15,894 bases of DNA from Candidatus Iainarchaeum sp. (lineage in GTDB: Archaea; Iainarchaeota; Iainarchaeia; Iainarchaeales; 0-14-0-20-30-16): the NCBI GenBank assembly GCA_903916665.1, contig CAIWXP010000176.1, positions 1 to 15,894 on the forward strand. The letters are read 5' to 3'. A model generated the notes under the pieces. It saw nothing but the letters and a program-made list of their open reading frames with translations, made no database searches and had not been told where the DNA came from. Numbering within the stretch: the first letter of the stretch is position 1; every line of letters starts with the position of its first letter. Positions 801-14,988 of the stretch are shown here, piece by piece. Made by a program: the position numbers and the translations under genes.

Positions 801-3800
801 ATGGGTTTGTCAGATTTATATTACAAACTAGAGGAAAAATATTATACTAGCTTAGACTGGTTTGATTCAAAAGGCATACATGTTTTTTATAAAATTGATG
901 AGTGGCTACAAAGCAAAAATATACCCTCATTTCCTGTTGTAACTATTTTTAATATATTACTTTTAGCAGTAATTGTATTATTGATATTGTATTTCACAGG
1001 AGTATTTGGTACTAATTATGTTAATGTTACAATGCAATTTGTTGATGTTACAAATAATGCCTCTGTATCAGCATTGCCAGTTTCATTAAGTTTTGATAAT
1101 GGTTCACAGGTTGGAACAACCAATGATACTGGAACATTGGAAGTGTCTTTGCCCAAGGATGCTTTGGTTCAAGTAACAATAGAATCAGATAAATATATGT
1201 TAGATAAAACTAGTTTTTCAGCAACTGATGGTGTACCAATTAAATTTGAATTAAGTGATAAAAGTAATTTGTTAGGAAATAAATTATTAAAATTATTTTC
1301 TGATTTAGATAATAAAGTATTGTTTTCAGGAAGTGTTGATGTTGATTTGACATGTAGTGGAGATGCTAATTATATAAAAAAGAAAACTGTTGTTGATGGT
1401 ACATTGGATTTGTCAGATTTACCAGATGATTGTGGTAATTTAACAGTTACTTCCTATGATCCTGAAATTTCAAAAACAATTGCAGTTACAAAAGATAGTT
1501 TAGAATTAGCAATTGATGCAAAACAAGTAACTGGAACATTAAGAGTAATAGTTCAAGATGATTCTAATAATGTATTACAAAATATGGCAGTAAGTGTTTA
1601 TTCTCAAGATTCTGTTTTGAAAGGTTCTCAAACAACAGCAGAAACTGGATTAACCGAATTTAAATTAAATTTAGGAAACTATTATGTTAGCGTTTCTGAT
1701 TCAGGTTCTGGAGAATATTCTTTTATTTCAACAAAAGATTTAAATGATTCTAGTTGTAATGATCAAATAACTGAAGCAACTCCAATTGTTTGTACTGTAA
1801 CAATGCAAAAATTAAATATTGGAAAAATAAATTTAAAAATATTAGATATTTCTGGTAAACCAGTTAGCACTGCAATAGTAGAAGTGTATAAAGGAGATTT
1901 AGAATTATTTAATGATACTTTACAACAGGATTCAAATGGATTATTTGTAAGAGGCGTTGCAGAACAAGGTCCCTACAGAATAGTTGTTGATGCTCCTCAA
2001 TATATGATTTATGATAACCCAAGTGTAATGATTTCTGATACCCCACAATCAATTACATTGGAACCAGTAAAAAGTTCACCAGTACTAAGTGTTTATGTTA
2101 CTGCAAATGATGATGTTGTTGCAAACGCAACTGTTCAATTATTTAAAGAAGGTAATTTATTATTAACAAAAACAACTGGTGCAGATGGTATTGCTTTTTT
2201 TGATAGATTAGAAACTGGAAAAGTATATAATGTTAAAGTTGTAAAAGGTGAATATTCAACAACATCTAATACAATTTCTTTAGATGCAAGACAACAAAAT
2301 AAATTAGAAGTTAAAATGGTTATTGGAAAAGGAAATGTTGATGTTGTAGTTTTAAATAAAAATGAAGAACCAGTTTTAGCAAGTGTTGAATTATTTAATG
2401 TCTATGATGATAAATCTTTGGGAACTGCAAATCAAACAGATTCAACAGGTACAGCACATTTTTATGGTATAGGTGCCGATAAAACTGTTTATGCAAAAAT
2501 TATAACAGATGCAGGAACAAGTTATAGTTTATCAAGTGATGTAATTGCAAGTCAAACTATAACATTGAATGCATATAGTATTGATGATTCAACAACATTA
2601 AATATGGAATTAGTTGGAGTTTACAATGGTGATGGTTCACAAATAAGTACATTACCCTATAATGTTGTTCCTAGTGGAGAATATTATGCAATGTTTTTAT
2701 TGCAAGTACCAAAAGGAAAATCATTTAACTCAGGAAATATATTTTTTGTTGGAGATGGAAAAACTCAAGCAGAATCAAGTATATTAATTAAAAGCACAGA
2801 AGTTTTGAATGGTCAAGAAACAAAAGGATTAACCTATACTGCTCCTTTGGGATATGCAGAAGATATGTTAAATAAAACTTCAGATAATGGTCTATGGAGT
2901 TCAGTAAATTTATCAAAAATAAATTCTGGATCAAGCTTAGTTAAAGTTGATTTTATTGTAAGTGGCGAACCTAAAAATGATTTATTTAAATTAGGATATA
3001 GAGCTAGTTTGAAAAGTGGAAGTTCAATAGTTAGAACACCAGTAGATAATATTTTGGGACAAAATGAAAGTGTTTCAGAAAAATTAGGATTCTATGCAGA
3101 AACAAGTGGATTATCATTTAAATCTGGAGATGCTATTTGTTCAGATATTGCCTGTGTTGAATTAACTGCTTTAGATTCAACTGGCTATACAACAAAATTA
3201 GGTCAAGATGCAGTATTATATTCTCAATTTAATACTGATACTGTTTTAAAATTCAAAATAGTTTCAGCAACAAAAACAGCATTAACAAATTTAAAATTAA
3301 ATATTGAATCAAAGAATTTAGGATTAAATATTTCTAATGTTAGTGTTAATGGAAAAGAATTAACAGGAAAAGGAAAATATACTTTAAATGTAGATAGTTT
3401 TAGTTCTGCTAATGGTATTTTAGGTAACATTGGTTTTACAACTGAAAAAGAAGGAGATACATTATTAACAATAACTTTATCTTCTGACAAAGAAGTTTTA
3501 TTTTCAAAAGAAATAAAAGTTAGTGTAAATAGTCCAAATAATTTAATTGTAGAATATTTGCCCACTACTATTATACCCTATGTTTTGAATTTAGGTGCAG
3601 TAGTTGTTAGTGATGCAAATGAAAAAATGCCAATTAGCGATATTTTAGTAAATGTTTATTTGAATGATAATTTAGTAACTTCTGGAAAAACAGATGGTGA
3701 CGGAACATTACCTGTTCAATTGGATAAACCAAATGCTGGTGATGTATTAAAAATTGTTGCTACTGGTCCAGGATATAATAGTGTAACAACAACAACAAAA

Positions 3801-6800
3801 ATAACCGAAAATATTTTAGTACCAAACAAACCAGAAATAGTAATTAATGTTGATAAAACAGAAAAAGAATTAGTAACAACAGATATTTCTTTAGCAACAC
3901 ATTTATTATCTAAATTGAAAATTAAAAAAGTAAGTTTTTCAACAAATAATTTTTCTGAATTTATAGATGTAAAAACAAGTATTTTACAAAACACAGAAAT
4001 TGATAGAAATATAGATGTCAATATTAGTGCACAATTAACTGATTTAGGAAAATCATTATTGGAACCAAAATCATTTAACACAAATTTAGAATTGGTTGTT
4101 AGATCCGATGAATTAGATAGACAATGGACTGTTGAAATTCCAATACAAATTTATATTAGAATGTTTGATTCCATTGATACATTAAATTGTTTACAATTAT
4201 TAGGTGATCAAAATGGAACATCTAGTTTTAAAATTGTAAATAATTGTATGTATCAAAATTCACCAATACAATTATACAATCCAACAATATTTGTTGAATG
4301 GGATGGAACTCCTTTAGGTGATTATTCTTATAATAATGATAAAATAACTGAAGATGGATTATTATTAAATAAAGAATTAAAACCTAAAACAACAACATTT
4401 TCTTTGGCCTTTACAAATAGTACAAGTATTGCTTCTGGTCAATCAAAAGTAAATATGACTTTGAAAGCCTATTTCCCAACAGAAACTGGTTTGCAAGAAT
4501 TAACTGCAAGCAAAGAGGGAGTAGTAACAGTAAGCGATTTGAAAAAATGTTTATTTATTATTGATCCAAATGGTAATCCATTAAACGCAGACACTGTTTT
4601 AATGAATCCAATAACTTTAGGAGTAGCTCAACAAACTTTGGGTGGTGGATTATTAGGTGGATTATATGGTGCACAATTAACTGCTTCAAATGGTTCTGCA
4701 TTGGGATCTCAATATGGGGGCGGCGCAACCTATTATCAAGCAGGTGCAGGTGGCACAACCAATAACTTTGATGCTGTTTTACATACAACAAGTGCTCAAG
4801 ATCCTAGTTTACTTTGGAGCGGATTACAATCACAGGCAACTGCAACTCCGGGCTATGGCACAACAGCAAGTAGTAGTACTACATCAACAGCAAATAATGG
4901 CTTTGATTCTTTAATTAGAACAGATTCATATAATTATAATATAGAAGATAATAGTAATACAATATTATTTGATGTTTATCCTTATACTCAAACTCCTGCT
5001 ATGGTAGGTGGATTAAGTACAGGTTTAACTCAACAACAATTAATGCAACAACAATTAATGTATGGTGGCCAACAAAGTCTTTATGGTGCTGGACAATATG
5101 GTGCACAACAAGCAGGTATGCTTTTACCATCAATAAACCAAATCACATTTTGGAATAAATGTAATGAACCTGTTGATATAGAAATAAGATCAGTACCTCA
5201 ATTATTTGTAAGTCCAAATACAATTTCAATTCCAGGAAATAATGCAAAGAGCCAAGTAAATATTATGTCAACTTCTTTACCAGGTAATTATCAAGTAACT
5301 GTTTTGGCAGGAACTCAGGGTAATATTTTACCTTTGATGACCATACCAGTAAATGTAATTGACTACGCTTCAAATACTGCAACGGATGATTGTTTCAAAT
5401 TATCTGATGAGCCAGTAATTAACATGAGCGATGTTTGGAAAAGAAATAAAATGATAAAAGTTTACAATTATTGTTATTCAAAAGGAGTAATTTTTGATGA
5501 TGCAACTCCTATTGCATTGCATAACTTATATTCAAGACAACCGGTTGTTGCAAAAGCAAAGGTTGGAGATTTAAATGATTTACGTATTGAACAAAATACA
5601 CCCTACGTTCAAGCAGTTGCATTGGGAGTACCAAATGTTCAAAGCAGTGCAACCTATGGTCAATACCAAGAATTAACTGTAATGTTAGAAAAAGATCCAA
5701 CAATACAAAGATTAGCAACAGAAAATCTTTCAAGAAATAATTCTGCTGGTGATTGGGTAAGTACAATAAGTTCAGTAAGATCTTCATTGGCTGATATTTA
5801 TAATAATGTTGAATTCCCTGCAATATTTGTAATCAATGCAAGAATTGGTTATGGTGCAGCAGGAATTAGAAAGAGTGTACAAAGATTAGTAACAGTAAGA
5901 GATATGTGGAATTTATTGGGTGCTGTTGATTTATATGAAAACCTAATTGGTGGAGATAAATCCTGTGTACCTAGTGATAAGTTAACTGATAAAGATAAAA
6001 ATAATAAATTCACTAGTTGGACTCCAAATATTGAAGTAACTAATGGTGAAATCTACACTTTGAAATGTAGTGATTTTAAACAATCAGAAATTAGAGTACC
6101 TTCAAGTGATTCTTTTACATTATTGAAAAAACCTTGTTTTGGAAAAGGAGATAGTGTAAAATTCAAAGATGATAAAATAAAAGCAACTGATAAAATAAAT
6201 GGAACAGATATTGAATTAGAAATAACACCTAATTTCGATTCTGGAAATATTTATTTTACAGTAAAACCAAAAACTAGTTTACCAAAAGGAACATCTGGCA
6301 CTATTGAAGTACCTGTAAATTATACTGTTCAATCATATTATCATAGTGATGCAGGTTATGATGCATTAAATAGAAAATATACTTTGAAATTAAAATTAGA
6401 TTTAGATTGTACAATTGATGGGTCAACAGCAACAACACCTGCAGATACTACAAAAGTATTATCAAAGGAAGATAGTTGGTGTGTTACAAACTTTGGTGAT
6501 AATTGGTATTCATTAAACACCTATGGATTTGGTGACTATAACAATTTATCATTGGGAAATATGTTAGCCTATAATTATCCAACAAGTAAAGCAACAGCAA
6601 AAGATTGTACAAAATACTTTTGTGATGCAGAACAATTAAAATTATTTTTAGATGGTAAATTTTCTGGATTAGGTTTTACAATAGCAACTACTCCTGTTGT
6701 ATTTAAAGATAAAAATTTAGTAACATTTGTTAGTCCTAGTACAAGAGGATTTGATCTATTACAATTAACTCCAAATGATGTATTAGATCCATTAAGTAAA

Positions 6801-7724
6801 TTTTTCTTAGATAGAGATTTAAGAACATTTGTTGATACAAATTCTGGATTGGCAGAATTTAAAAAATTAGTTGCAAACATGCCAGACTTATATTTGAAAG
6901 TAATTAATTTTAAATGTAATTCTGATGCAAATAATAATGTTGCATTTGAAGATAGTAATAATTGTTATTACAATGCAAAAATGTTATCTGAACATGTTAA
7001 AGCAGAACAAATAATGAGATCAGATTTAAACAAACCCTATGAGATTGTATTCTTAGTAGATTCAAAAACAACTCCTGGATTGGTATTGTTTAATGGTTCA
7101 TATTCTGGAAAGGGTACAATAAATAAAGTTTATTTGAAACCCGATGATTATAATAGAGTATTTAATACTGGTTTCTTAAGTTATAATGCAGAATTATTGC
7201 AAGCAACAAAAATAACAAAACCTGGTGCATATGTTGCAATAAGTTTAGAATTAGGTCCAAGCGGAAAGAAATTAATTTTATATCCTGGAAACTATTATTT
7301 AGGATCATCGGAAGATACAGTAAAAACATTGGATAAATTATTTTATAATTTACCAGTTGATCCTAGTGAAAGACCAAGCTATGCCGGACAATATGGTTTA
7401 TGTATTTCTACTGGGCAATTAAAAGTAGATGATAAAACAATATCAAGTAATTCCTGTGGATCAACTGAATTTGCAAAAGCAAAGACAGAAATATCTACTG
7501 ATAATTATTTGAGCATTGTTGGAACAAATGATTTGAAAAATTTAATAATTAAATATCCTAAATGTGATACTTCTGGTTGTGAAGTAACAATTAAAGATAA
7601 TAAAAAAGTTACAGTTCCAAAAGAAGGATATTTATTAAATGCAATATTTGATAAATCTAATGAATATTGTTATAAAGAAGAATCGAATACAATTAATATT
7701 AAATATTCTGGTGTAAAGAATTAA
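801..7724 (+). CDS. Giant (2307 aa) N-terminally anchored surface protein P1: conserved cytoplasmic N-module + TM, ~6 tandem beta-sandwich modules, Cys-pair modules, low-complexity G/Q/Y insert, P3-like C-terminal module
   Basis: Uninterrupted 6.9-kb ORF in an AT-rich sequence where stop codons are frequent. The single TM 'VVTIFNILLLAVIVLLILYF' lies after ~45 polar residues. Repeated ~85-95-aa units have the carboxypeptidase-regulatory-like pattern, for example 'GTLRVIVQDDSNNVLQNMAVSVY...TAETGLTEFKL..GNYYVSVS'. N-x-S/T sequons are dense (NVT, NAS, NGS, NDT within ~40 aa after the TM). Cysteines occur in pairs. Confidence 0.93.
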   Translation: MGLSDLYYKLEEKYYTSLDWFDSKGIHVFYKIDEWLQSKNIPSFPVVTIFNILLLAVIVLLILYFTGVFGTNYVNVTMQFVDVTNNASVSALPVSLSFDNGSQVGTTNDTGTLEVSLPKDALVQVTIESDKYMLDKTSFSATDGVPIKFELSDKSNLLGNKLLKLFSDLDNKVLFSGSVDVDLTCSGDANYIKKKTVVDGTLDLSDLPDDCGNLTVTSYDPEISKTIAVTKDSLELAIDAKQVTGTLRVIVQDDSNNVLQNMAVSVYSQDSVLKGSQTTAETGLTEFKLNLGNYYVSVSDSGSGEYSFISTKDLNDSSCNDQITEATPIVCTVTMQKLNIGKINLKILDISGKPVSTAIVEVYKGDLELFNDTLQQDSNGLFVRGVAEQGPYRIVVDAPQYMIYDNPSVMISDTPQSITLEPVKSSPVLSVYVTANDDVVANATVQLFKEGNLLLTKTTGADGIAFFDRLETGKVYNVKVVKGEYSTTSNTISLDARQQNKLEVKMVIGKGNVDVVVLNKNEEPVLASVELFNVYDDKSLGTANQTDSTGTAHFYGIGADKTVYAKIITDAGTSYSLSSDVIASQTITLNAYSIDDSTTLNMELVGVYNGDGSQISTLPYNVVPSGEYYAMFLLQVPKGKSFNSGNIFFVGDGKTQAESSILIKSTEVLNGQETKGLTYTAPLGYAEDMLNKTSDNGLWSSVNLSKINSGSSLVKVDFIVSGEPKNDLFKLGYRASLKSGSSIVRTPVDNILGQNESVSEKLGFYAETSGLSFKSGDAICSDIACVELTALDSTGYTTKLGQDAVLYSQFNTDTVLKFKIVSATKTALTNLKLNIESKNLGLNISNVSVNGKELTGKGKYTLNVDSFSSANGILGNIGFTTEKEGDTLLTITLSSDKEVLFSKEIKVSVNSPNNLIVEYLPTTIIPYVLNLGAVVVSDANEKMPISDILVNVYLNDNLVTSGKTDGDGTLPVQLDKPNAGDVLKIVATGPGYNSVTTTTKITENILVPNKPEIVINVDKTEKELVTTDISLATHLLSKLKIKKVSFSTNNFSEFIDVKTSILQNTEIDRNIDVNISAQLTDLGKSLLEPKSFNTNLELVVRSDELDRQWTVEIPIQIYIRMFDSIDTLNCLQLLGDQNGTSSFKIVNNCMYQNSPIQLYNPTIFVEWDGTPLGDYSYNNDKITEDGLLLNKELKPKTTTFSLAFTNSTSIASGQSKVNMTLKAYFPTETGLQELTASKEGVVTVSDLKKCLFIIDPNGNPLNADTVLMNPITLGVAQQTLGGGLLGGLYGAQLTASNGSALGSQYGGGATYYQAGAGGTTNNFDAVLHTTSAQDPSLLWSGLQSQATATPGYGTTASSSTTSTANNGFDSLIRTDSYNYNIEDNSNTILFDVYPYTQTPAMVGGLSTGLTQQQLMQQQLMYGGQQSLYGAGQYGAQQAGMLLPSINQITFWNKCNEPVDIEIRSVPQLFVSPNTISIPGNNAKSQVNIMSTSLPGNYQVTVLAGTQGNILPLMTIPVNVIDYASNTATDDCFKLSDEPVINMSDVWKRNKMIKVYNYCYSKGVIFDDATPIALHNLYSRQPVVAKAKVGDLNDLRIEQNTPYVQAVALGVPNVQSSATYGQYQELTVMLEKDPTIQRLATENLSRNNSAGDWVSTISSVRSSLADIYNNVEFPAIFVINARIGYGAAGIRKSVQRLVTVRDMWNLLGAVDLYENLIGGDKSCVPSDKLTDKDKNNKFTSWTPNIEVTNGEIYTLKCSDFKQSEIRVPSSDSFTLLKKPCFGKGDSVKFKDDKIKATDKINGTDIELEITPNFDSGNIYFTVKPKTSLPKGTSGTIEVPVNYTVQSYYHSDAGYDALNRKYTLKLKLDLDCTIDGSTATTPADTTKVLSKEDSWCVTNFGDNWYSLNTYGFGDYNNLSLGNMLAYNYPTSKATAKDCTKYFCDAEQLKLFLDGKFSGLGFTIATTPVVFKDKNLVTFVSPSTRGFDLLQLTPNDVLDPLSKFFLDRDLRTFVDTNSGLAEFKKLVANMPDLYLKVINFKCNSDANNNVAFEDSNNCYYNAKMLSEHVKAEQIMRSDLNKPYEIVFLVDSKTTPGLVLFNGSYSGKGTINKVYLKPDDYNRVFNTGFLSYNAELLQATKITKPGAYVAISLELGPSGKKLILYPGNYYLGSSEDTVKTLDKLFYNLPVDPSERPSYAGQYGLCISTGQLKVDDKTISSNSCGSTEFAKAKTEISTDNYLSIVGTNDLKNLIIKYPKCDTSGCEVTIKDNKKVTVPKEGYLLNAIFDKSNEYCYKEESNTINIKYSGVKN
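1020..2585 (+). repeat. Protein-level tandem array of ~6 divergent beta-sandwich (CarboxypepD_reg/PEGA-like) modules in P1
   Basis: The recurring pattern is: hydrophobic strand, D/N, 'xxxPVxxAxVxL/V', 'T(T)DxxGxxxF', 'GxYxVxV', then a final strand. Examples are 'KILDISGKPVSTAIVEVYKGD...DSNGLFV...GPYRIVVDAPQY' and 'VYVTANDDVVANATVQLFKEG...TGADGIAFF..LETGKYNVKVVKGEY'. The repeats are too divergent to see at nucleotide level. Confidence 0.6.
4621..5120 (+). other. Low-complexity G/Q/Y/S/T-rich (probably disordered) insertion inside P1
   Basis: The translation is 'GVAQQTLGGGLLGGLYGAQLTASNGSALGSQYGGGATYYQAGAGGTT ... ATATPGYGTTASSSTTSTANNG ... GGLSTGLTQQQLMQQQLMYGGQQSLYGAGQYGAQQAGM'. Local G+C is visibly higher than the flanks. 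The paralog P2 has no counterpart at the equivalent position. Confidence 0.8.
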
Positions 7725-7737
7725 AGTGGTGGATATA

Positions 7738-10700
7738 ATGGGTATACAAGATATATATTACAAATTAGAAAATGGCTATTATAGTATTTTAGATAAAATA
7801 GATAAGGCCGGATTACATGTCTATGCAATTGTTGATCCAATTGATAAAGTAGTTCCAAGTTTTGCATTAATTCTTGGTTTATTTGGATTGATAATTTTAG
7901 CATTAATATTCTATTTTGCATTTATGTTTGGTTCAGTAGGCCCAAGTACACCCGTAACTTTTTATTTTGTAGATAAATCTGGAAATCCAGTAGCAGATGC
8001 AAATGTTGAAATGTTATTAAATAGTACACCCTATAGTTACACCACAACAAAATTGGGAACCATTGCATTCGATGCTTACCAAGGAGATGTTGTTGATTTA
8101 AATATTAGCGCAGGAACTGAAACTGAAAAGATAAATGAAGTTATTTCTGATAAAACAGAATATAAATATTCATTAAGTTTTTCTTTAGAGCAGGATACCA
8201 TAAGATTTAGTGTAAATACAAATGATGGTTCGCCATTAAAAGAAATTAATATTGAATTTTTGTGTAGTAATACAACCATTGCAGCACCCAGTGCAATTTA
8301 TAGTTCTACTGCAACTGATTATTCTGTTAGTGTTGATCCACAATGTGGTAATTTAACAGCAACAGTAAAATCTAATTATTATGCAGAAGTATCTGTAACT
8401 TCTTTAACAGATTTACAAGCAATAATTGTGCAACCATTAAACTATGGTGGAAATAATTCAATAGTATTAGTTGTTTTTGATAAGGATACCAATGATTCTA
8501 TTAATGATTATTCTGCAACGGTAAGTCAAACAGGAATTGTGTTAGATAATCAAACTTCTATGAGTACTGATACAATAATGTTTTCTGGTTTATCAACAGG
8601 TTCATTTGTTGTTAGTGTAAGTAAAACAGGATATCTTCCTGCAAGTACTTCAGTAACATTACAAAGTGGTACATCAAGCGCAGTAGTTTATATGCAAAAA
8701 GATTATGCAAATATTGGTGGAAATTTATTGGTAACTGTTGTGGATGGTAGTTCAACAAGTTTGCCAAATTTATTTGGTGCAACAGTAAGTGTATACAAAT
8801 TAGATGGTGATAAACAAAGTGTTATAATTAAAAGTGCAGCAACAACATCAGATAATAATGCAACAGTAACTATTCCTGTTGATGATATGAGTTTGAATTA
8901 TTGGGTTCAAATTACAGATTCAGGATATATAACTCAAAATAAAAAATCAGTTAATCCAAGACAACCATTGGTGGTTGCATTAAATAAATTGGGGTCTCAA
9001 AGAAATGCAGTTATACAAGTATTAGATGCAGATAAAACACCAATAGGAAATGCAACAGTTGCTTTGTATGATGAAAAAGATAATGTTGTTGATCCAAATT
9101 TTGGAATAACTGATGCAAATGGTATTGCAGCAGATAAAAGTTTAGAAGAAGATGCAAAATATAAAGCCTATATTTACAAAGGACAATATAATGGTACAGG
9201 TGAATTATTTACCTATAACTCATCAACTTTACCTGCAAATGGTATTGATAGCACAGTAACATTAACATTGCCAAAATCAAGTTGGGAAATTACTTTGGTA
9301 GATAAATTTAATGCTCCTGTTCCAAATGCATTGGTAGAAATATATGATGCATACACAGGATTTCCAAATGCAGATCCAATTGAAGTAGGAACAAAATATG
9401 CGTCGCCTCAAGGTGTTTTTAGTGTATCAAATTTAAGTACAGATAAAAAATATTTTGCAGTAATTAAAGCACCAAGCTATGAAAATTATGTTAGTATTGC
9501 AAAATTTTTAGAACCAAATTCAAATGTTCAAGAAACTTTTGTTTTGGAAAAAGAAAGATTAAATAAAAAACCAGTAATAGAACAATTAGGTATTGAAGAT
9601 ACAGAAGGAAAACAGGTAATGAAATTAGGTCCTGGAAATTTATATAAAGTAAAATTTAAAATTACTTTGCCTGCTGGTGTAAAATATGATACTTTAACTG
9701 CAAATTTTTTAGTTGGTGCAGAAGATTCTTTTGTTGAAAAAGATGCAGGATATATTGATAGAGTTAATATTAGTGCGTCTGGAGTTTTAGCAAAAGGTAG
9801 AGCTTATTTGAATGGTGATTTCCAAAAAAGTATTAGTGAATCACAGACAGGAAAAGAAACAAGAGCTTTCGAAAATGATATTGTTGAAGGTACTCCATTC
9901 CAAGATGAAACTAAATGGGTTCAATTGACTTGGAATTTAAATAAATTTAATATCGAAAGTGGACAAATGTTTGTTGATTTATATTTACAAGTTAGACCAG
10001 GAACATTGGAAGGAACAACAATTCCTGTAGAATATAATATAGTTACATCTGGTGTTGATAGCCAAGGTGATGATCAAACTTATTTAGATCCTCTTGATAG
10101 TGCAACCTATGATAAAGAACACAATAGTTTGTTTAATAATAAAAAACCATTAATATTAAATGTTGGTGATGGTCAACAAATTTGTGATGATAAATTTTGT
10201 TTTGAAATGACAATATTTGATACTAATGATGAATTAAAAACAAGTGTTTCTGGAGATACTCCCTATATTGCAACATTGGGAAAGAATTATAATATGAAAT
10301 TTAATTTAATGAATAATAATATTGTTCCATTAACACACTATAGAATTGTTATTGAAAACCCACAACAAAATATTAATATGAAATCTGGAGTAATATATTC
10401 TGCAGATAATAATGCAGAAACAATGCCTCAACCAAGCAACTTTGATGACTATTTTAAATATACTTTTAGAGCAGAATCAGAAAATGATGTTTTGTCTCAA
10501 AACAGTGTAATTAAAGGGGATATTAATTTTGTTCCTATTGTTGAAGGTTCGGGTTCAATTAAATTAACAGTAATAGAAGATATGACAATAATTTACACAA
10601 AAGAATTATATGTTAGTGTTAATGCAAATAAAGAATTAAGAGTGGTTATAGAACCAGAAGTTATACCATCTTACGTAAATTTAACTGATATAAATTTTAC

Positions 10701-12471
10701 AGTTTATGATGGAAATAGCAGTGCATTTATAGATGGTGCAACGGTTAGAGTTGTTGATGTCTATAAAAATGTTTTAGCTGAAAGCGATACCAATGAATTG
10801 GGTGTTGCAAAATTAACTTTAAAATCTCAATTACCAAATATTGATTTGAAATTAAAAGTATATAAAGAAGGATTTAAAGCCTATGAAAAAATATTAAAAA
10901 CAAATGATAAATTTGTTACAATAAATCCAGAAGAATTAAAAATATCAGCAAATATTGCAGATAAATTAGGTACTGCAAAATTAACATTAACAAATACAAG
11001 TGAATTACCAGTTAAAATTACTGAATTAAGTTTAGAAGGTAATTTTGATGAGTATGTTAATTTAAGAGAAGCAAATAATTATTTATCAAATAGTAGTTTG
11101 AATAAAACAATTGATAAGAATCATTCAATTATTGTGCCGGTAAATGTTAATTTAACAACCATTGCAGAAAGTTTACAAACCAATAGAGAATATTCTGCAG
11201 ATTTAATTGTTAAAATAAGACCAGATAGTAATACAATATCAAGTACAAAAGATTGGGAATATAAAATTCCTGTTACATTGAGTATTACTTTAGGTAAAGG
11301 ATTAGATAATTTAGATTGTTTAGGTGTGGATGTTCAAAAATCTGCTTTGGTATCAACTGGTGGAAAGAATGATGAAGACACAGTAAACATTGTTAATGGA
11401 TGTACAGTAGATTCACAGCCAGTAAATTTAACAAATTTAGAAGCTAAAGTAACTTGGAAAGGAAACGCTTTGGGTAGTTTAACATTTAATAGAAATGAAC
11501 AAAGTGCAAGATTACAAAATGCATACTATGTTACATTAAATAATAAAATGACAACCCACGAGGAAGATAATTACATTGTTGATTTAGCACCAACAAATGG
11601 AAGAATCGCAGGTGTAGGTACAGTTGAAGTTTCTGTTAGAGCCGGTTATTTTGCAGACTCAGGTGTTCAATTTGTTGAAAAGAAAATTACCTATTCTGTG
11701 GATGTAATTAATATGGGAGCTTGTATAAGCTATGTTTTTCCAGATAATGAAGTTGATTTGATGACAGTTCCAAGAAATGCAAAAGGAACTTTTACAGTAA
11801 AGAACGAATGTGATACGGATATTGCATTGAAATTAGATGTATTGCCAGATCAATTTATTGATATAAGACCATTGGAATTAACAGTTCCTGCAAAGGGAGA
11901 AAAAGCAGTAATAATTGATCCAAAGAATTCTCCTGTTGGAATATATTTATTAGAAGTTAGAGGACAGGTTCCTAAACAACACTTTGAAGGAATTAAAGTT
12001 GGAAATGAAGCATTAAGAGTTTTCATTGCTCCTTTGGCCGATGATTGTTTAGTATTGGATAACTATGAATTTAATTTAATGGACACAAATGGGGGCGACG
12101 CAGAGCGTTATACTTATTTGATTAATAGATGTTATTTCAAAGATATTAAAGCAGTTTACAAATTAGATTTATTAAGAAATGATGGTTGTAAAATGGAAAA
12201 CTTTAACGGTTGGCTAACTAGCCTAGCTGGTTCAATGGTTGCGGGTGTAACCATTGGTTCAGCAATTGGTAGTGCAGTTGGTGGCGGTTGTGGTGCCTTA
12301 AACAATAGTGAAAGCTATGTTTCTGTTGATAAGAAAAAATGTATGGATGCGGCAGATCAAAACAAAGCAGATGCAAAAGCTGCTGCTGATAAAGCCGCTG
12401 CCGCAGCTGCCGCAGCAAAACCAGCAGCAACTGCAGCTTCTGCTGCTGTTCCAGCTATAACTGTTACATAG
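7738..12471 (+). CDS. Giant (~1577 aa) surface protein P2, paralog of the first ~1550 aa of P1, with C-terminal glycine-zipper helix and Ala-rich tail
   Basis: I prefer ATG 7738 to the tracked GTG 7726 for two reasons. 'MGIQDIYYKLENGYY' then aligns residue-for-residue with the P1 start 'MGLSDLYYKLEEKYY'. 'GGTGGA' (7728-7733) also sits 4-5 nt upstream as an RBS. Only 13 nt separate it from the P1 stop. Motifs are colinear with P1, for example 'CGNLT' with 16 identical nt at 8344-8359 versus 1431-1446. Confidence 0.9.
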   Translation: MGIQDIYYKLENGYYSILDKIDKAGLHVYAIVDPIDKVVPSFALILGLFGLIILALIFYFAFMFGSVGPSTPVTFYFVDKSGNPVADANVEMLLNSTPYSYTTTKLGTIAFDAYQGDVVDLNISAGTETEKINEVISDKTEYKYSLSFSLEQDTIRFSVNTNDGSPLKEINIEFLCSNTTIAAPSAIYSSTATDYSVSVDPQCGNLTATVKSNYYAEVSVTSLTDLQAIIVQPLNYGGNNSIVLVVFDKDTNDSINDYSATVSQTGIVLDNQTSMSTDTIMFSGLSTGSFVVSVSKTGYLPASTSVTLQSGTSSAVVYMQKDYANIGGNLLVTVVDGSSTSLPNLFGATVSVYKLDGDKQSVIIKSAATTSDNNATVTIPVDDMSLNYWVQITDSGYITQNKKSVNPRQPLVVALNKLGSQRNAVIQVLDADKTPIGNATVALYDEKDNVVDPNFGITDANGIAADKSLEEDAKYKAYIYKGQYNGTGELFTYNSSTLPANGIDSTVTLTLPKSSWEITLVDKFNAPVPNALVEIYDAYTGFPNADPIEVGTKYASPQGVFSVSNLSTDKKYFAVIKAPSYENYVSIAKFLEPNSNVQETFVLEKERLNKKPVIEQLGIEDTEGKQVMKLGPGNLYKVKFKITLPAGVKYDTLTANFLVGAEDSFVEKDAGYIDRVNISASGVLAKGRAYLNGDFQKSISESQTGKETRAFENDIVEGTPFQDETKWVQLTWNLNKFNIESGQMFVDLYLQVRPGTLEGTTIPVEYNIVTSGVDSQGDDQTYLDPLDSATYDKEHNSLFNNKKPLILNVGDGQQICDDKFCFEMTIFDTNDELKTSVSGDTPYIATLGKNYNMKFNLMNNNIVPLTHYRIVIENPQQNINMKSGVIYSADNNAETMPQPSNFDDYFKYTFRAESENDVLSQNSVIKGDINFVPIVEGSGSIKLTVIEDMTIIYTKELYVSVNANKELRVVIEPEVIPSYVNLTDINFTVYDGNSSAFIDGATVRVVDVYKNVLAESDTNELGVAKLTLKSQLPNIDLKLKVYKEGFKAYEKILKTNDKFVTINPEELKISANIADKLGTAKLTLTNTSELPVKITELSLEGNFDEYVNLREANNYLSNSSLNKTIDKNHSIIVPVNVNLTTIAESLQTNREYSADLIVKIRPDSNTISSTKDWEYKIPVTLSITLGKGLDNLDCLGVDVQKSALVSTGGKNDEDTVNIVNGCTVDSQPVNLTNLEAKVTWKGNALGSLTFNRNEQSARLQNAYYVTLNNKMTTHEEDNYIVDLAPTNGRIAGVGTVEVSVRAGYFADSGVQFVEKKITYSVDVINMGACISYVFPDNEVDLMTVPRNAKGTFTVKNECDTDIALKLDVLPDQFIDIRPLELTVPAKGEKAVIIDPKNSPVGIYLLEVRGQVPKQHFEGIKVGNEALRVFIAPLADDCLVLDNYEFNLMDTNGGDAERYTYLINRCYFKDIKAVYKLDLLRNDGCKMENFNGWLTSLAGSMVAGVTIGSAIGSAVGGGCGALNNSESYVSVDKKKCMDAADQNKADAKAAADKAAAAAAAAKPAATAASAAVPAITVT
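7951..9560 (+). repeat. Protein-level tandem array of ~6 beta-sandwich (CarboxypepD_reg/PEGA-like) modules in P2
   Basis: Examples: 'PVTFYFVDKSGNPVADANVEML', 'LLVTVVDGSS..LFGATVSVYKLDG', 'AVIQVLDADKTPIGNATVALYDEKD...TDANGIA', 'WEITLVDKFNAPVPNALVEIYDAY...SPQGVFSVSNL..DKKYFAVIKAPSY'. The order and module count match P1 1020-2585. Confidence 0.6.
12208..12468 (+). other. P2 C-terminal glycine-zipper hydrophobic segment followed by K/D/A then poly-Ala/Pro tail
   Basis: The translation is 'GWLTSLAGSMVAGVTIGSAIGSAVGGGCGAL ... DQNKADAKAAADKAAAAAAAAKPAATAASAAVPAITVT*'. The small-xxx-small (GxxxG/AxxxG) periodicity is typical of glycine-zipper membrane helices. The stretch is a GC-rich codon island (GCN runs) in an AT-rich gene. 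Confidence 0.7.
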
Positions 12472-12498
12472 GTATTTTATTTTTTACGGTGATTTTTT

Positions 12499-14988
12499 AT
12501 GATTAATTATAGAGAAGGGAAAAATATGAGAAATAAAATATTAGGATTTATGTTTTTATTATTCTGCATGACTTTGTTTTTTAGTCAAATATATGCAGAA
12601 GCAGCAGCATCAGGTATTGGGGGAATGCTTTCAGGTGTCGGAGGACAAACTCTAATGACTGGTGGATTAATGGCCGCTGGTTATTTAGGTGGGCAATACT
12701 TAACTAAAGCATTAGGTGGAGATAATGAAATGGCAAAAGCTAGTGGAGGTATGGCCTCAGGATTAGCAACATTAGGTGGTGCTTTAGGTGGAATTTTAGG
12801 TGGAACTGGTTGGGGTGCAATTGCAGGTATTATTGGTTCGGCTGTTGGAAGTACAGTTGGTGCAATTATGTTCGCAGCATCAAAGGATCCCTTAACAACA
12901 GTGGACCGAGGAGTTTTAACAAGAATTATTTCTTTGGATGCAAATAATGCAAGAGTATTTTCTGCAAATTATAAAGTTGCAGGTAGCGACACAGAATCAG
13001 ATTATTATGGCGCAGAATACAAAGCAGATAAAAACTTTATTAAAAAAGATAAAGATACTTACTTTGAATATACTCCTGTAAAAATAACAACTAAAAGACA
13101 ATTAAATGGCTCAGGATCAATACCAAAGGAAGTTGACACAGCAGTGTTAGTTTTTGATACAAGAGGATTACCAGATTATTTGTATAAAAGTACAGGAAAT
13201 CCCGGTGCATTAAATCCTTTAGCAGCAGGTACTCAAACACCAGTAAATGGTGCAGCAACTTCAGTATATTCTGGATCAACAACAGATCCATTTGCAGGTG
13301 CATTAGAATTGAGTGATGATTCAAGACAGGAAATGGGTTGGTGTAAAGCCAATGATCAAAGTGAATTAGAAGCAGTGGATAAAATTGTATCAAAGAATTG
13401 GGTACAAAAATTAGCTGAAGATGAAAAACAATCAAACCAAGAATCATTTGTTTTATTATTGAAATATTTAAAGCCTCAAGAAGAAGCTATTCAAATACCT
13501 TCATATAATTGTTTAGGTCCTAATGGATTATTAGGTGTAACTGGCGCAGATAATGCTCCAAAAGTATTATATGATTGGTCATGGAATACTGTAGGTGGAG
13601 TAAATACTGATTTTTGTAGTTCGGGAAATTATTATTGTGATTCAACACAATTTATGATATTCCTATTAAAAAGATTAGAAAAATATAATACTTTAGCAGC
13701 AAGTATTGATGGAAATGTATCAAGCACTGCTGATTTAAATGGAAATAGCACAGGTTACCAAAAACAAATATATGATAATTTAAATTTTAAAACATATATG
13801 ATGTTAGATGGTTTTACTCAAGACTTTTTGAAAGATTTTAAAGACTATGCAGTTAATACAAGTTATTTGGGATTTCCTTCTGATGAACAGGAAAAGTTTT
13901 CAGCAATGTTACCAGATAAAGTATCATTTAGACCTTTAAGTGGAGAAACAGTAAATCCCGAAGGTTATAGATTACCTCAAGCTGGTGCATACAATGTTGT
14001 AATAGAAGTAACCTATAAAGATGGTACAACAAACTATGAATTATTTAATAATAATAAAATATCAGATAACGTAAGTAATATCTATGTTTATTTTGAACCA
14101 GTTTCACAGGAAGTAAATCCAATTTATAATATGCCTTTGGATGCAACTGTGGGTGTGGATAAACAAGTTATAGATAGAATTGGCTATGGTGTAGATTATT
14201 CAGGAGATTCTATTTGGTTTAAAATGGACCCAAATAATAGTATGTTATTAGATCCTACTATGAGATCTAATTCAACACCAATAGTTCATTTAGACATGGT
14301 AACAAAAGCAGATACTCAAAGTCTAAATGGTTTTATGAAAGGCACAGTATTGCAAATAATTCCTAAATCAGGAGCAAATGGTGTTGCCTATGCAGTAACA
14401 AAATATAAATCATTGCCAACCTATGTTGATTTAACAATTAATAAAAAAACAGAGGGCGGAGCCTATGCTTATTATTCAATAGACTTTGGAGATAGCGGTG
14501 CACCACAGAATGCAGGTAATTCTTTTATATTGTGGAATTTAATATGTACAAAAGACAATCCAGGTTGTGAAAGTTTTAATGGTGCAAAAGAAACTGATGA
14601 TATGTATTTATCAGATAAATTGGGAGTAAATGCCAAGGTTGCACCAACTGGGCAAGTACAAGGTTTTGTCTACGGATTAGAATGGGATAAAGATTCTATA
14701 ATAAGAGATGGAAAACATAATTCTGTAAATTACAGAGGTATGGTATATATGCCCGATGATTTAGGCTCAGTAAATTTTAATGTGGTTATTGCAAGTGATA
14801 GTTCAGTTCCTGCAGTAGGTTCAACTCAAATATTAACTTCTAAAGTTGATGGAAAATTAGAAGATATAGCTGGTATATTTGATAGAATGAAAAACAATGA
14901 AATTTGTATGAGCAAAGATGGTTCAGGTATAAGATTCTGGTGGAACCCTGCAAAGGTAATGGGTTTAGCAGAAGCACCTACAAATTAA
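12499..14988 (+). CDS. Secreted/membrane-associated protein P3 (829 aa; 820 aa if ATG 12526): Sec-type signal peptide, ~95-aa Gly-rich glycine-zipper region, large Cys-containing domain resembling the C-terminal extension of P1
   Basis: 'GGTGAT' (12488-12493) lies 5-6 nt before ATG 12499. The alternative ATG 12526 yields a canonical signal peptide, 'MRNKILGFMFLLFCMTLFFSQIYA|EAAASG'. The Gly-rich block runs 'GIGGMLSGVGG...GGALGGILGGTGWGAIAGIIGSAVGSTVGAIMFAAS'. Motifs are colinear with P1 6470-7724 (see findings). The ORF is followed by a hairpin plus oligo-T. Confidence 0.9.
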   Translation: MINYREGKNMRNKILGFMFLLFCMTLFFSQIYAEAAASGIGGMLSGVGGQTLMTGGLMAAGYLGGQYLTKALGGDNEMAKASGGMASGLATLGGALGGILGGTGWGAIAGIIGSAVGSTVGAIMFAASKDPLTTVDRGVLTRIISLDANNARVFSANYKVAGSDTESDYYGAEYKADKNFIKKDKDTYFEYTPVKITTKRQLNGSGSIPKEVDTAVLVFDTRGLPDYLYKSTGNPGALNPLAAGTQTPVNGAATSVYSGSTTDPFAGALELSDDSRQEMGWCKANDQSELEAVDKIVSKNWVQKLAEDEKQSNQESFVLLLKYLKPQEEAIQIPSYNCLGPNGLLGVTGADNAPKVLYDWSWNTVGGVNTDFCSSGNYYCDSTQFMIFLLKRLEKYNTLAASIDGNVSSTADLNGNSTGYQKQIYDNLNFKTYMMLDGFTQDFLKDFKDYAVNTSYLGFPSDEQEKFSAMLPDKVSFRPLSGETVNPEGYRLPQAGAYNVVIEVTYKDGTTNYELFNNNKISDNVSNIYVYFEPVSQEVNPIYNMPLDATVGVDKQVIDRIGYGVDYSGDSIWFKMDPNNSMLLDPTMRSNSTPIVHLDMVTKADTQSLNGFMKGTVLQIIPKSGANGVAYAVTKYKSLPTYVDLTINKKTEGGAYAYYSIDFGDSGAPQNAGNSFILWNLICTKDNPGCESFNGAKETDDMYLSDKLGVNAKVAPTGQVQGFVYGLEWDKDSIIRDGKHNSVNYRGMVYMPDDLGSVNFNVVIASDSSVPAVGSTQILTSKVDGKLEDIAGIFDRMKNNEICMSKDGSGIRFWWNPAKVMGLAEAPTN
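12598..12880 (+). other. Glycine-zipper / Gly-rich membrane-interacting region of P3
   Basis: About 95 aa with roughly one third Gly and repeated GxxxG/GxxxA spacing. The last segment, 'GWGAIAGIIGSAVGSTVGAIMFAA', is long and hydrophobic enough for a TM helix. Confidence 0.7.

What the first reader, a model, noticed from the sequence alone, without database searches (positions are those of the whole stretch)
801..1010. Conserved Tyr-rich N-terminal cytoplasmic module plus signal-anchor shared by both giant proteins (second copy 7738-7945)
P1 begins 'MGLSDLYYKLEEKYYTSLDWFDSKGIHVFYKIDEWLQSKNIPSFPVVTIF...'. P2 begins 'MGIQDIYYKLENGYYSILDKIDKAGLHVYAIVDP-IDK-VVPSFALILGLF...'. The two share M-G-[LI]-x-D-[LI]-Y-Y-K-L-E-x-x-Y-Y-x-x-L-D-x-x-D-x-x-G-[IL]-H-V-[FY]...D...PSF, immediately followed by a single TM helix. 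This is far better conserved than the downstream ectodomains, which suggests selection on a ~45-aa cytoplasmic handle. The handle might act as a targeting or insertion signal, or as a docking site for a cytoplasmic partner or cytoskeleton. It is not a Sec/Tat signal peptide, a lipobox or a class III (pilin) signal.
Basis: seen in the sequence. Interest (0 to 1): 0.62.

Follow-up and report, generated by a model that had tools for sequence, protein, structure and literature searches.

The report
Cytoplasmic cap domain of archaeal giants
Both giant surface proteins in this window start with the same small, previously uncatalogued domain that sits inside the cell just before the single membrane helix. 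This domain heads nearly every giant (about 2,000-5,000 residue) surface protein in a whole phylum of tiny DPANN archaea, so it is a good handle for finding out how these cells export and hold such proteins.

Summary
P1 (801-7724) and P2 (7738-12471) share a ~45-residue N-terminal module followed by one ~22-residue hydrophobic helix.

It is a domain family, not a local paralogy:
- It occurs in 206 of 215 Iainarchaeota (Diapherotrites) genomes, including 58 of 58 high-quality ones, at roughly 1-9 copies each.
- It occurs in 41 of 41 sampled genomes of one order of a second DPANN phylum, but in none of 38 other genomes sampled from that phylum.
- A profile search of 1.84 billion representative proteins gave 1,119 hits. 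In the 150 listed, the match was always a single stretch at or within ~60 residues of the N-terminus.
- Short hits are contig-end fragments of giants.

In P1-type orthologues it is the most conserved stretch, and synonymous changes dominate there. Between divergent giant types it is often the only detectable similarity. AlphaFold2 predicts a helical hairpin plus a transmembrane helix (pLDDT ~90) for both copies. No Pfam, NCBIfam or PDB family matches.

Best reading (0.5): a retained N-in/C-out signal-anchor whose folded cytoplasmic cap fixes topology and serves as a docking or bundling handle. A cleavable "extended signal peptide" remains possible. The partner is unknown, and two conserved neighbour genes were excluded as obligate partners.

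This scan had already noted the same domain on another genome (e1-1234947).

The parts
801..923 (+). P1 cytoplasmic cap, residues 1-41. Helix 1 covers residues 3-23 and carries Y7, E11, K13, Y14, Y15, L18 and D19. A turn follows, then helix 2 (residues 28-38) with Y30.
   Evidence: Translation. AF2 with a 92-sequence alignment gives pLDDT 91.7, with helices at 3-23 and 28-38. Column conservation over 92 sequences: Y7 98%, E11 99%, Y15 93%, D19 100%, Y30 97%.
924..935 (+). P1 P-S-F-P hinge (residues 42-45) at the cytoplasm-membrane boundary.
   Evidence: P42 99%, S/T43 92%, F/L44 97% across 92 modules. AF2 starts the membrane helix at residue 43.
927..998 (+). P1 transmembrane helix (residues 43-66), the only strongly hydrophobic segment in the 2,307-residue protein.
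   Evidence: AF2 helix at 43-66. The Kyte-Doolittle scan finds one segment, residues 40-74. Family-wide hydrophobic run is 21.8 +/- 4.0 residues.
7738..7854 (+). P2 cytoplasmic cap, residues 1-39 (B-type variant ending in DPIDKVV). Helices at 3-26 and 29-36.
   Evidence: Translation. AF2 with 34 B-type sequences gives pLDDT 89.7. A4 invariant residues are E11, Y15, D19, Y29, D36 and P40.
7855..7932 (+). P2 P-S-F hinge (residues 40-42) and transmembrane helix (residues 41-65).
801..7724 (+). P1, an A-type giant surface protein of 2,307 residues. The beta-sandwich (CarboxypepD_reg-like) array begins about 5 residues after the helix.
   Evidence: It is colinear with the AR10 A-type giant at E = 2e-85.
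7738..12471 (+). P2, the N-terminal 1,577 residues of a B-type giant.
   Evidence: Colinear with residues 7-1434 of a single-chain B-type giant (L092) at E = 9e-97.
12499..14988 (+). P3, 829 residues. It corresponds to the C-terminal part of the B-type giant, which is split off here. It has no N-module.
   Evidence: P3 residues 368-821 align to L092 B-type residues 2059-2503 at E = 4e-23.

Best explanation
The module is a lineage-specific N-terminal domain made of two parts. The first is a ~42-residue acidic, Tyr-rich helical hairpin that stays in the cytoplasm. It joins through a conserved P-S-F hinge to the second part, a ~22-residue membrane helix that acts as an uncleaved SRP/Sec signal-anchor (N-in, C-out). 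That helix is the only membrane anchor of a 2,000-5,000-residue ectodomain.

Shown: the domain exists, it sits at the N-terminus, it is restricted to giants, it is under strong purifying selection, and it has the phyletic distribution described.

Inferred:
(a) The folded, charged cap cannot cross the membrane, so it locks the orientation while the huge ectodomain is threaded out co-translationally.
(b) Its many near-invariant surface-type residues (Y7, E11, D/E12, K13, D19, D/E34, E/D37) are kept because the cap binds something conserved. That could be the caps of the other giant paralogues (bundling 3-7 giants into one surface assembly) or an unidentified cytoplasmic or inner-face membrane factor.
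For: - Position and carriers. In the 150 listed hits of 1,119 found in 1.84e9 representative proteins, the match is a single stretch that starts at or within ~60 residues of the N-terminus. Carrier frames are mostly 2,000-3,400 residues, with a few up to about 5,200. Short hits are prefixes of giants.
- Distribution. 206 of 215 phylum genomes and 58 of 58 high-quality genomes carry it. So do 41 of 41 genomes in one order of a second phylum, against 3 of 41 genomes sampled evenly across that phylum.
- Selection is on the protein. Synonymous to non-synonymous changes are 17:5 in the module and 102:207 in the ectodomain. Identity is 64-89% against 32-58%. It is the top-conserved window in the orthologue alignment.
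- Between A/B-type, C-type and second-lineage giants, the module is often the only BLAST-detectable similarity.
- Fold. Two independent AF2 runs give the same helix-turn-helix-hinge-helix, with pLDDT 91.7 and 89.7 and pTM 0.63 and 0.60.
- Anchor rather than cleaved signal. The hydrophobic run is 21.8 +/- 4.0 residues with a median of 22. There is no enrichment of small residues at -1/-3 (52% each). In 31 of 43 complete giants this is the only hydrophobic segment, and none has a C-terminal anchor.
- Orientation. K+R average 1.31 in the 15 residues before the helix and 0.52 after it. The ectodomain is built of beta-sandwich repeats.
- The A, B and C paralogue types keep their own module variants across the order. 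That fits specific rather than generic contacts.
Against: - No partner was identified. The prepilin-like neighbour was not detected in the second lineage (0 of 41 genomes). The small 4-TM neighbour was not detected in this genome.
- No experimental or DeepTMHMM/SignalP topology or processing data exist.
- The charge bias across the helix is modest, and the cap is net acidic (K+R 4.5, D+E 7.8).
- The 5-9-residue G/A/S/P-rich linker after the helix could still hold a signal-peptidase site, and the genome encodes a signal peptidase I-like protein.
- AF2 confidence for a 70-residue helical peptide does not prove a stable autonomous fold.
- N-x-S/T sequons are not enriched beyond composition, so they do not help fix the topology.
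Confidence: 0.5

Rival explanations
1. Extended, cleavable signal peptide. The 42-residue cap is an N-terminal extension of a Sec signal peptide, functionally like ESPR of giant autotransporters, YSIRK, or the KxYKxGKxW/accessory-Sec signal. It tunes targeting or slows translocation of very long substrates, and signal peptidase I removes it. The giants are then released or held by other contacts.
For: The module is found only on very large exported proteins. Its layout is extension, then a basic residue (K/R39), then a hydrophobic core, then a short G/A/S/P-rich linker just before the first beta-strand. Many members read P-x-x-A or A-x-A there. A signal peptidase I-like ORF is present on C144.
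Against: The hydrophobic core has a median of 22 residues and a 5th percentile of 17, longer than typical cleaved h-regions of about 7-15 (established knowledge, von Heijne). Small residues at -1/-3 reach only ~52% each, no better than linker composition. P2 has Pro where +1 would fall (GSVG|PST). Without this helix, 31 of 43 giants would have no anchor at all. A cap that is the best-conserved part of the protein, with many invariant charged residues, is unusual for a discarded leader. No ESPR, YSIRK or KxYKxGKxW model matches.
Confidence: 0.25
2. Purely topogenic cap with no partner. The hairpin is conserved only because it must fold quickly and stay inside to force N-in insertion of an otherwise weakly biased helix. 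Nothing else binds it.
For: The charge bias alone is weak, so an extra N-in determinant would be useful. No partner gene was found. The fold prediction is confident.
Against: Any folded or charged N-tail would serve this purpose. That does not explain 100% D19, 99% E11, 98% Y7 and 97% Y30 over two phyla. It also does not explain paralogue-specific variants that stay stable across the order.
Confidence: 0.15
3. Long leader peptide removed at the inner face of the membrane by a prepilin-type (A24) or other peptidase at the conserved hinge. This would leave a pilin-like N-terminal helix that is assembled by the neighbouring type IV pilus-like machinery.
For: The near-invariant P-S-F motif lies exactly at the cytoplasmic end of the helix. 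Some members read [KR]-G-I-P. The genome has three A24 peptidases. In many relatives, giants sit beside a true prepilin-like protein, and in some near a T2SSE ATPase and a polytopic membrane protein. Archaeal precedent for large proteins with class III signals is the Sulfolobus sugar-binding proteins (from memory).
Against: Most A-type modules have N, and B-type modules have V/I, where class III signals need G/A at -1. The leader would be about 40 residues and folded, against the usual 3-15. No class III model matches. The prepilin neighbour was not detected in the second lineage that carries the module.
Confidence: 0.07

Closest known systems
ESPR, the extended signal peptide region of giant autotransporters and two-partner-secretion proteins (Pfam PF13018)
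   Same: It is a conserved N-terminal extension in front of the hydrophobic export segment. It occurs almost only on very large surface proteins. It is thought to affect targeting or translocation kinetics (from memory).
   Different: ESPR is bacterial, about 25 residues long, precedes a normal short cleavable signal peptide, and is removed. Here the module is archaeal, has 42 residues predicted to fold, is followed by a 22-residue helix that looks like a permanent anchor, and shows no sequence match.
YSIRK-G/S and KxYKxGKxW signal peptides of Gram-positive surface proteins (PF04650, TIGR03715)
   Same: These are lineage-specific conserved motifs in the N-region of the signals of large adhesins. 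They route those proteins to a particular site or accessory pathway.
   Different: They are short motifs in cleaved signals. KxYKxGKxW depends on accessory SecA2/Y2 genes, and no dedicated genes were found here. There is no HMM match.
Generic type II (N-in/C-out) signal-anchor membrane proteins
   Same: A single N-proximal helix of about 20 residues or more, a more positive N-flank, a large exoplasmic C-terminal domain, and no other anchor.
   Different: Ordinary signal-anchors have no conserved cytoplasmic domain shared by a protein family across a phylum.
Mycoplasma mobile gliding proteins Gli349/Gli521 and other clustered giant surface proteins, e.g. Apilactobacillus kunkeei Giant1-5 (PMC12863079; 10.1101/823039)
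   Same: Several consecutive genes encode 2,000-8,000-residue surface proteins in a small genome and take up several per cent of it. Here the figure is at least 33 kb, about 3.4%. In M. mobile the giants are coupled to an internal structure.
   Different: The sequences and lineages are unrelated. No internal machinery is known or was found here. Those proteins do not share one common N-terminal cytoplasmic domain.
Archaeal class III (prepilin-type) signals on large exported proteins, e.g. Sulfolobus sugar-binding proteins processed by PibD (from memory)
   Same: A conserved motif lies at the cytoplasmic end of an N-terminal hydrophobic helix on large archaeal surface proteins. Prepilin peptidases are present.
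   Different: The [KR][GA] cleavage consensus is not met, and the leader is ten-fold longer and folded.

Membership tests
ESPR (PF13018) | Match to the ESPR profile in the N-terminal extension | tested here: not met
   hmmscan of 25 modules against Pfam at E <= 10 gave no ESPR hit.
ESPR (PF13018) | The extension is followed by a short cleavable Sec signal peptide | tested here: inconclusive
   The hydrophobic run has a median of 22 residues and there is no clear -3/-1 pattern. Cleavage cannot be measured here.
YSIRK / KxYKxGKxW signal peptides (PF04650, TIGR01168, TIGR03715) | Match to the motif models | tested here: not met
   No hit in Pfam or NCBIfam at E <= 10.
Class III / prepilin-type signal peptide | Short basic leader ending in [KR]-[GA] directly before the hydrophobic helix | tested here: not met
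   The residue before the I/V-P-S-F hinge is N in 35% of modules, G in 23% and V in 17%. B-type modules read D-K-x-x-P-S-F. The leader is about 40 residues. For contrast, the neighbouring PIL proteins do show [KR][GA]-F-T-L-F-T-A-L.
Tat signal / lipoprotein signal | Twin-arginine motif, or a lipobox Cys after the h-region | tested here: not met
   P1 and P2 residues 1-75 contain no RR and no Cys. There are no Tat or lipoprotein model hits.
Type II signal-anchor | A single N-proximal hydrophobic helix long enough to span the membrane, and no other anchor | tested here: met
   The hydrophobic run is 21.8 +/- 4.0 residues. AF2 helices are at 43-66 and 41-65. In 31 of 43 complete giants it is the only hydrophobic segment.
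Type II signal-anchor | Positive-inside charge bias giving N-in orientation | tested here: met
   K+R average 1.31 in the 15 residues before the helix and 0.52 after it. The bias is modest.
Type II signal-anchor | Not cleaved; N-terminus retained in the mature protein | not testable with these tools
   This needs N-terminal proteomics or tagged expression.
PGF-CTERM / Loki-CTERM archaeosortase sorting signals | Motif plus helix plus basic tail at the C-terminus, with a profile match above cut-off | tested here: not met
   Only weak Loki-CTERM similarity: best E = 0.17, and 11.4 bits for P1 against a cut-off of 19.9, in 9 of 25 modules. The element is N-terminal and its motif lies on the opposite side of the membrane.
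Any catalogued domain or solved fold | Significant sequence or structure match | tested here: not met
   The best Pfam matches are noise (Ish1 E = 0.023 in 4 of 25). The PDB profile search gives a best E of 0.59. Foldseek against PDB returns 0 hits. Source names are 'hypothetical' or 'carboxypeptidase regulatory-like'.

The most novel reading that the evidence does not exclude
The cap is the docking element of a dedicated, still unidentified cytoplasmic or inner-face machine in Iainarchaeota and one related order. That machine could be a specialised targeting or assembly pathway for giant proteins (an archaeal counterpart of accessory-Sec or ESPR-type routing). Alternatively, it could be a transmembrane coupling device that ties 3-7 different giants, through their paralogue-specific caps, into one surface organelle controlled from inside the cell.
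Probability: 0.2. Interest if true: 0.8.

Novelty: new variant of a known kind. Interest (0 to 1): 0.58.

Why it matters
- Iainarchaeota and related DPANN archaea are uncultivated. How they contact other cells is unknown, and about 3% of their ~1-Mb genomes goes to these giants.
- A short, easily recognised N-terminal signature (Y-x3-E-[DE]-[KR]-[YW]-[YF]-x2-L-D ... P-[VI]-Y ... P-[ST]-F followed by a helix) finds giant genes even on fragmentary contigs. It also fixes their true start codons.
- It defines a 45-residue peptide that can be used directly as bait or as a fusion tag to ask how archaea insert and retain multi-thousand-residue proteins.
- It would also merit a new domain-family entry in the databases.

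Tried and rejected
- Known signals and domains: Pfam and NCBIfam scans of 25 modules at E <= 10 gave nothing meaningful.
- Solved structures: the PDB profile search and Foldseek found no match.
- HeH/SAP-like DNA-binding idea: prompted by weak Ish1 hits, it was rejected because the E-values are noise and the cap is net acidic.
- 'IPSF mimics the FtsZ C-terminal peptide': rejected, because this genome's FtsZ ends in ...DDDWDIKYTG with no such motif.
- Structural RNA next to the giants: this was suspected from ORFs conserved on both strands, but there were no Rfam hits.
- Partner candidates from gene neighbourhood. The ~155-residue 4-TM proteins between A- and B-type giants occur in 21 loci but were not found in this genome. 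The prepilin-like PIL protein occurs in 34 of 67 loci and on C173 here, but in 0 of 41 genomes of the second phylum, including the three that carry the module. Neither is an obligate partner.
- Sequon density as topology evidence: not enriched over composition.
- Word-index protein searches with the region option found only close relatives. The first genome-contig scan with whole P1 found nothing, and the broad alignment A1 was too diverse for pattern search.
- Literature: four full-text searches and one paper read found no description of this module.
Full report
**Observation**

The window is a 29%-GC contig (C176) of a 975-kb, 83%-complete DPANN genome. P1 and P2 are colinear paralogues, 24% identical over ~1,400 residues. 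Their first 70 residues are 45% identical, and they find each other in the whole genome at E = 4.8e-11. The genome holds five carriers of the module: P1, P2, C162 (at least 1,030 residues, cut by the contig end), C181 (2,930 residues) and C183 (2,430-residue frame). Together they cover at least 33 kb, about 3.4% of the assembly.

**It is a domain family, not a local duplication**

A search with P1 residues 1-70 hit 40 of 41 genomes of the same order, with 2-7 hits each. Nearly all hits lie at the start of open frames of 2,000-3,400 residues, often in tandem clusters.

Record titles of related loci place the lineage in Candidatus Iainarchaeum / Diapherotrites, including the complete AR10 genome CP010424.

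The consensus over 92 modules is xxxKxxYxxLEDKYYxxLDWLDxxGIPVYxxxDxIExxxIPSFP, followed by a hydrophobic helix. The most conserved positions are D19 (100%), E11 (99%), P42 (99%), Y7 (98%), Y30 (97%) and Y15 (93%).

A profile of these 92 sequences was scored against all 1.84 billion representative proteins:
- 1,119 hits at E <= 1e-3, of which 833 are at E <= 1e-10.
- In the 150 listed hits the match is a single stretch. Most start at residues 1-16 and a few as late as residue 63, which probably reflects mis-called starts.
- Of those 150, about half are 1,500-3,600 residues long. The short ones (64-975 residues) align as colinear prefixes of giants, mostly right to their last residue, so they are genes cut by contig ends.
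- In the four genomes assembled into one or two contigs, every carrier frame listed exceeds 1,500 residues.

**Phyletic distribution**

- In the window's phylum, 206 of 215 genomes have the module, including 58 of 58 genomes that are at least 90% complete. The nine without a match are 65-86% complete.
- It also occurs in a second phylum, reached through two MAGs that NCBI labels 'Candidatus Micrarchaeia'. There, all 41 sampled genomes of one order have it, at 1-7 copies on frames of up to 5,182 residues.
- An even sample of that whole phylum gave only 3 of 41, the query genome and two others that all belong to that same order, and 0 of 38 for the rest.
- The total of 1,119 representatives is roughly what these two lineages would supply. 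I therefore see no sign of a large reservoir elsewhere, although hits beyond the best 150 could not be inspected.

**Selection**

- In a MAFFT alignment of P1 with 19 full-length P1-type giants from across the order, the first 45-50 residues form the best-conserved window: 0.71 against a mean of 0.42 and a runner-up of 0.63.
- Against same-genus and same-family orthologues, residues 1-46 are 64-89% identical, the membrane helix 25-54%, and residues 75-570 only 32-58%.
- For the closest pair, codon differences are 17 synonymous to 5 non-synonymous in the module, against 102 to 207 in the ectodomain. The constraint therefore acts on the peptide, not on the DNA or RNA.
- Giants fall into at least three old paralogue types. 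P1 is A-type (...NIPSFP). P2 is B-type (...DPIDKxxPSF[AIL]). C181 is C-type (...GIP[AS]xxF). Each type keeps its own module variant across the order.
- Between A/B-type, C-type and second-lineage giants, BLASTP often detects nothing but the module. Examples are L042-C against P1 (residues 4-53 to 1-46, 44% identity) and L066 against P1 (residues 35-83 to 2-49, 41% identity).

**Anatomy**

AlphaFold2 with the 92-sequence alignment gives P1 helices at 3-23, 28-38 and 43-66 (pLDDT 91.7, pTM 0.63). A separate run for P2 with 34 B-type sequences gives helices at 3-26, 29-36 and 41-65 (pLDDT 89.7, pTM 0.60). Both are a helical hairpin, a P-S-F hinge and a membrane helix.

Over 228 members, the run from the hinge to the first P, N, Q or charged residue is 21.8 +/- 4.0 residues, with a median of 22 and a 5th percentile of 17. 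It is followed by a linker averaging about 5 residues and then the first beta-strand of the CarboxypepD_reg-like array.

In 31 of 43 complete giants this helix is the only hydrophobic segment. The remainder have only marginal internal segments, and none has a C-terminal anchor.

K+R average 1.31 in the 15 residues before the helix and 0.52 in the 15 after it. The cap as a whole is acidic, with K+R 4.5 and D+E 7.8.

**Topology and processing (inferred)**

Three features point to N-in/C-out:
- the charge bias across the helix;
- a 42-residue cap with about 12 charges and a predicted fold, which is unlikely to be translocated without a signal (established knowledge on N-tail translocation);
- an ectodomain made of beta-sandwich repeats.

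I did not re-test that claim.

The length of the hydrophobic run, and the lack of a -3/-1 small-residue pattern (52% at each position), favour an uncleaved signal-anchor over a cleavable signal. However, many members do read P-x-x-A or A-x-A just before the first strand, and the genome has a signal peptidase I-like ORF. Cleavage therefore cannot be excluded. I could not run DeepTMHMM or SignalP.

**Comparison with known signals**

- No Pfam or NCBIfam model covers the module. ESPR, YSIRK, KxYKxGKxW, class III, Tat and lipoprotein models are all silent. The only recurrent hit is a sub-threshold Loki-CTERM similarity to the P-S-F-plus-helix part, with a best E of 0.17.
- There is no PDB sequence match (best E = 0.59) and no Foldseek match.
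- Public names for carriers are 'hypothetical protein' or 'carboxypeptidase regulatory-like domain-containing protein'.
- Four full-text searches and a reading of the DPANN protein-family paper (PMC8204110) found large DPANN lytic-transglycosylase proteins described, but nothing on this N-terminal domain.
- This scan had already noted the same 45-residue cytoplasmic domain on giants of another DPANN genome (e1-1234947). My results agree with that note. They add the global profile search, the second lineage, the selection measurements and the partner exclusions.

**Search for a partner**

In Iainarchaeales the usual gene order is:
1. C-type giant
2. PIL, a 460-800-residue protein with a canonical prepilin signal ([KR][GA]-F-T-L-F-T-A-L)
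3. A-type giant
4. a ~155-residue 4-TM protein
5. B-type giant

A T2SSE ATPase and a ~760-residue polytopic membrane protein lie nearby in some loci.

In this window P1 and P2 are only 13 nt apart. No 4-TM homologue is found in the assembly, and PIL lies on another contig (C173). PIL was not detected in 41 genomes of the second phylum, including the three that carry the module. Neither protein can therefore be an obligate partner of the cap.

The genome has three A24 prepilin peptidases, but the hinge does not fit their [KR][GA] consensus in most members. The idea that the I-P-x-F hinge mimics the FtsZ C-terminal peptide was dropped, because this genome's FtsZ has no such motif.

**Verdict**

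The thing itself is an uncatalogued N-terminal domain, a cytoplasmic helical-hairpin cap plus a signal-anchor helix, that is the shared hallmark of the giant surface proteins of Iainarchaeota and one further DPANN order.

I commit, at about 0.5, to a retained type II anchor whose cap both fixes orientation and acts as a binding handle, either cap-to-cap between the paralogous giants or to an unknown inner factor. The alternatives are:
- a cleavable extended signal peptide, about 0.25;
- a purely topogenic cap with no partner, about 0.15;
- a hinge-cleaved leader, about 0.07.

It works like the N-terminal extensions that mark giant exported proteins in bacteria (ESPR, YSIRK, KxYKxGKxW), but it is not a member of any of those families.

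Noticed in passing
L035-L072 (e.g. L050:8215-9684, L036:8391-9890); own genome C173 minus strand, ORF of 496 aa: A 460-800-residue protein with a canonical prepilin signal ([KR][GA]-F-[TN]-L-F-T-A-L) and several invariant cysteines lies directly upstream of A-type giants in 34 of 67 related loci. It has no Pfam match. It was not detected in the second phylum that also carries the N-module.
   Followed up: partly
L083:8628.., L042:17672.., L045:18018.. (between A- and B-type giants): A family of ~155-residue, four-helix membrane proteins with a conserved D-L-x-G-K-x-N-F motif and no Pfam match sits between the A- and B-type giants in 21 loci. It was not found in this genome, where P1 and P2 are 13 nt apart.
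   Followed up: partly
window 7738-14988: P2 plus P3 together are colinear with single-chain B-type giants of relatives (L092: P2 aligns to residues 7-1434, and P3 residues 368-821 to residues 2059-2503).
   Followed up: yes
window 879-890 (P1 residues 27-30): The P1 cap departs from the family consensus. It has His27 where 84% of members have Pro, and one extra residue (Phe29) before the near-invariant Tyr30. Same-genus orthologues share this, so it is a lineage trait and not an error.
   Followed up: partly
own genome C72:4501-4806, C114:5393-5749, C145:239-595; C144:3693-4277: The ~1-Mb genome has three A24 (prepilin-type) peptidase homologues and one signal peptidase I-like ORF. Three prepilin peptidases is a high number for so small a genome.
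   Followed up: no
L065:5172-7445 (minus), L073, L059: A T2SSE-type secretion ATPase (PF00437, E = 7.5e-18) and a ~760-residue polytopic membrane protein lie a few kb upstream of giants in 6-7 loci. This suggests a type IV pilus-like machine near some giant clusters.
   Followed up: partly
L081 (JAFCBY010000012.1): A bin labelled 'Candidatus Falkowbacteria bacterium' (CPR bacteria) carries five copies of the archaeal module on giant frames. It is most likely a mislabelled or mixed bin.
   Followed up: no
G260:C2:2443 and G269:C8:28464 (second lineage): In the second lineage, frames of up to 5,172-5,182 residues start with the module. That is about twice the usual size.
   Followed up: no
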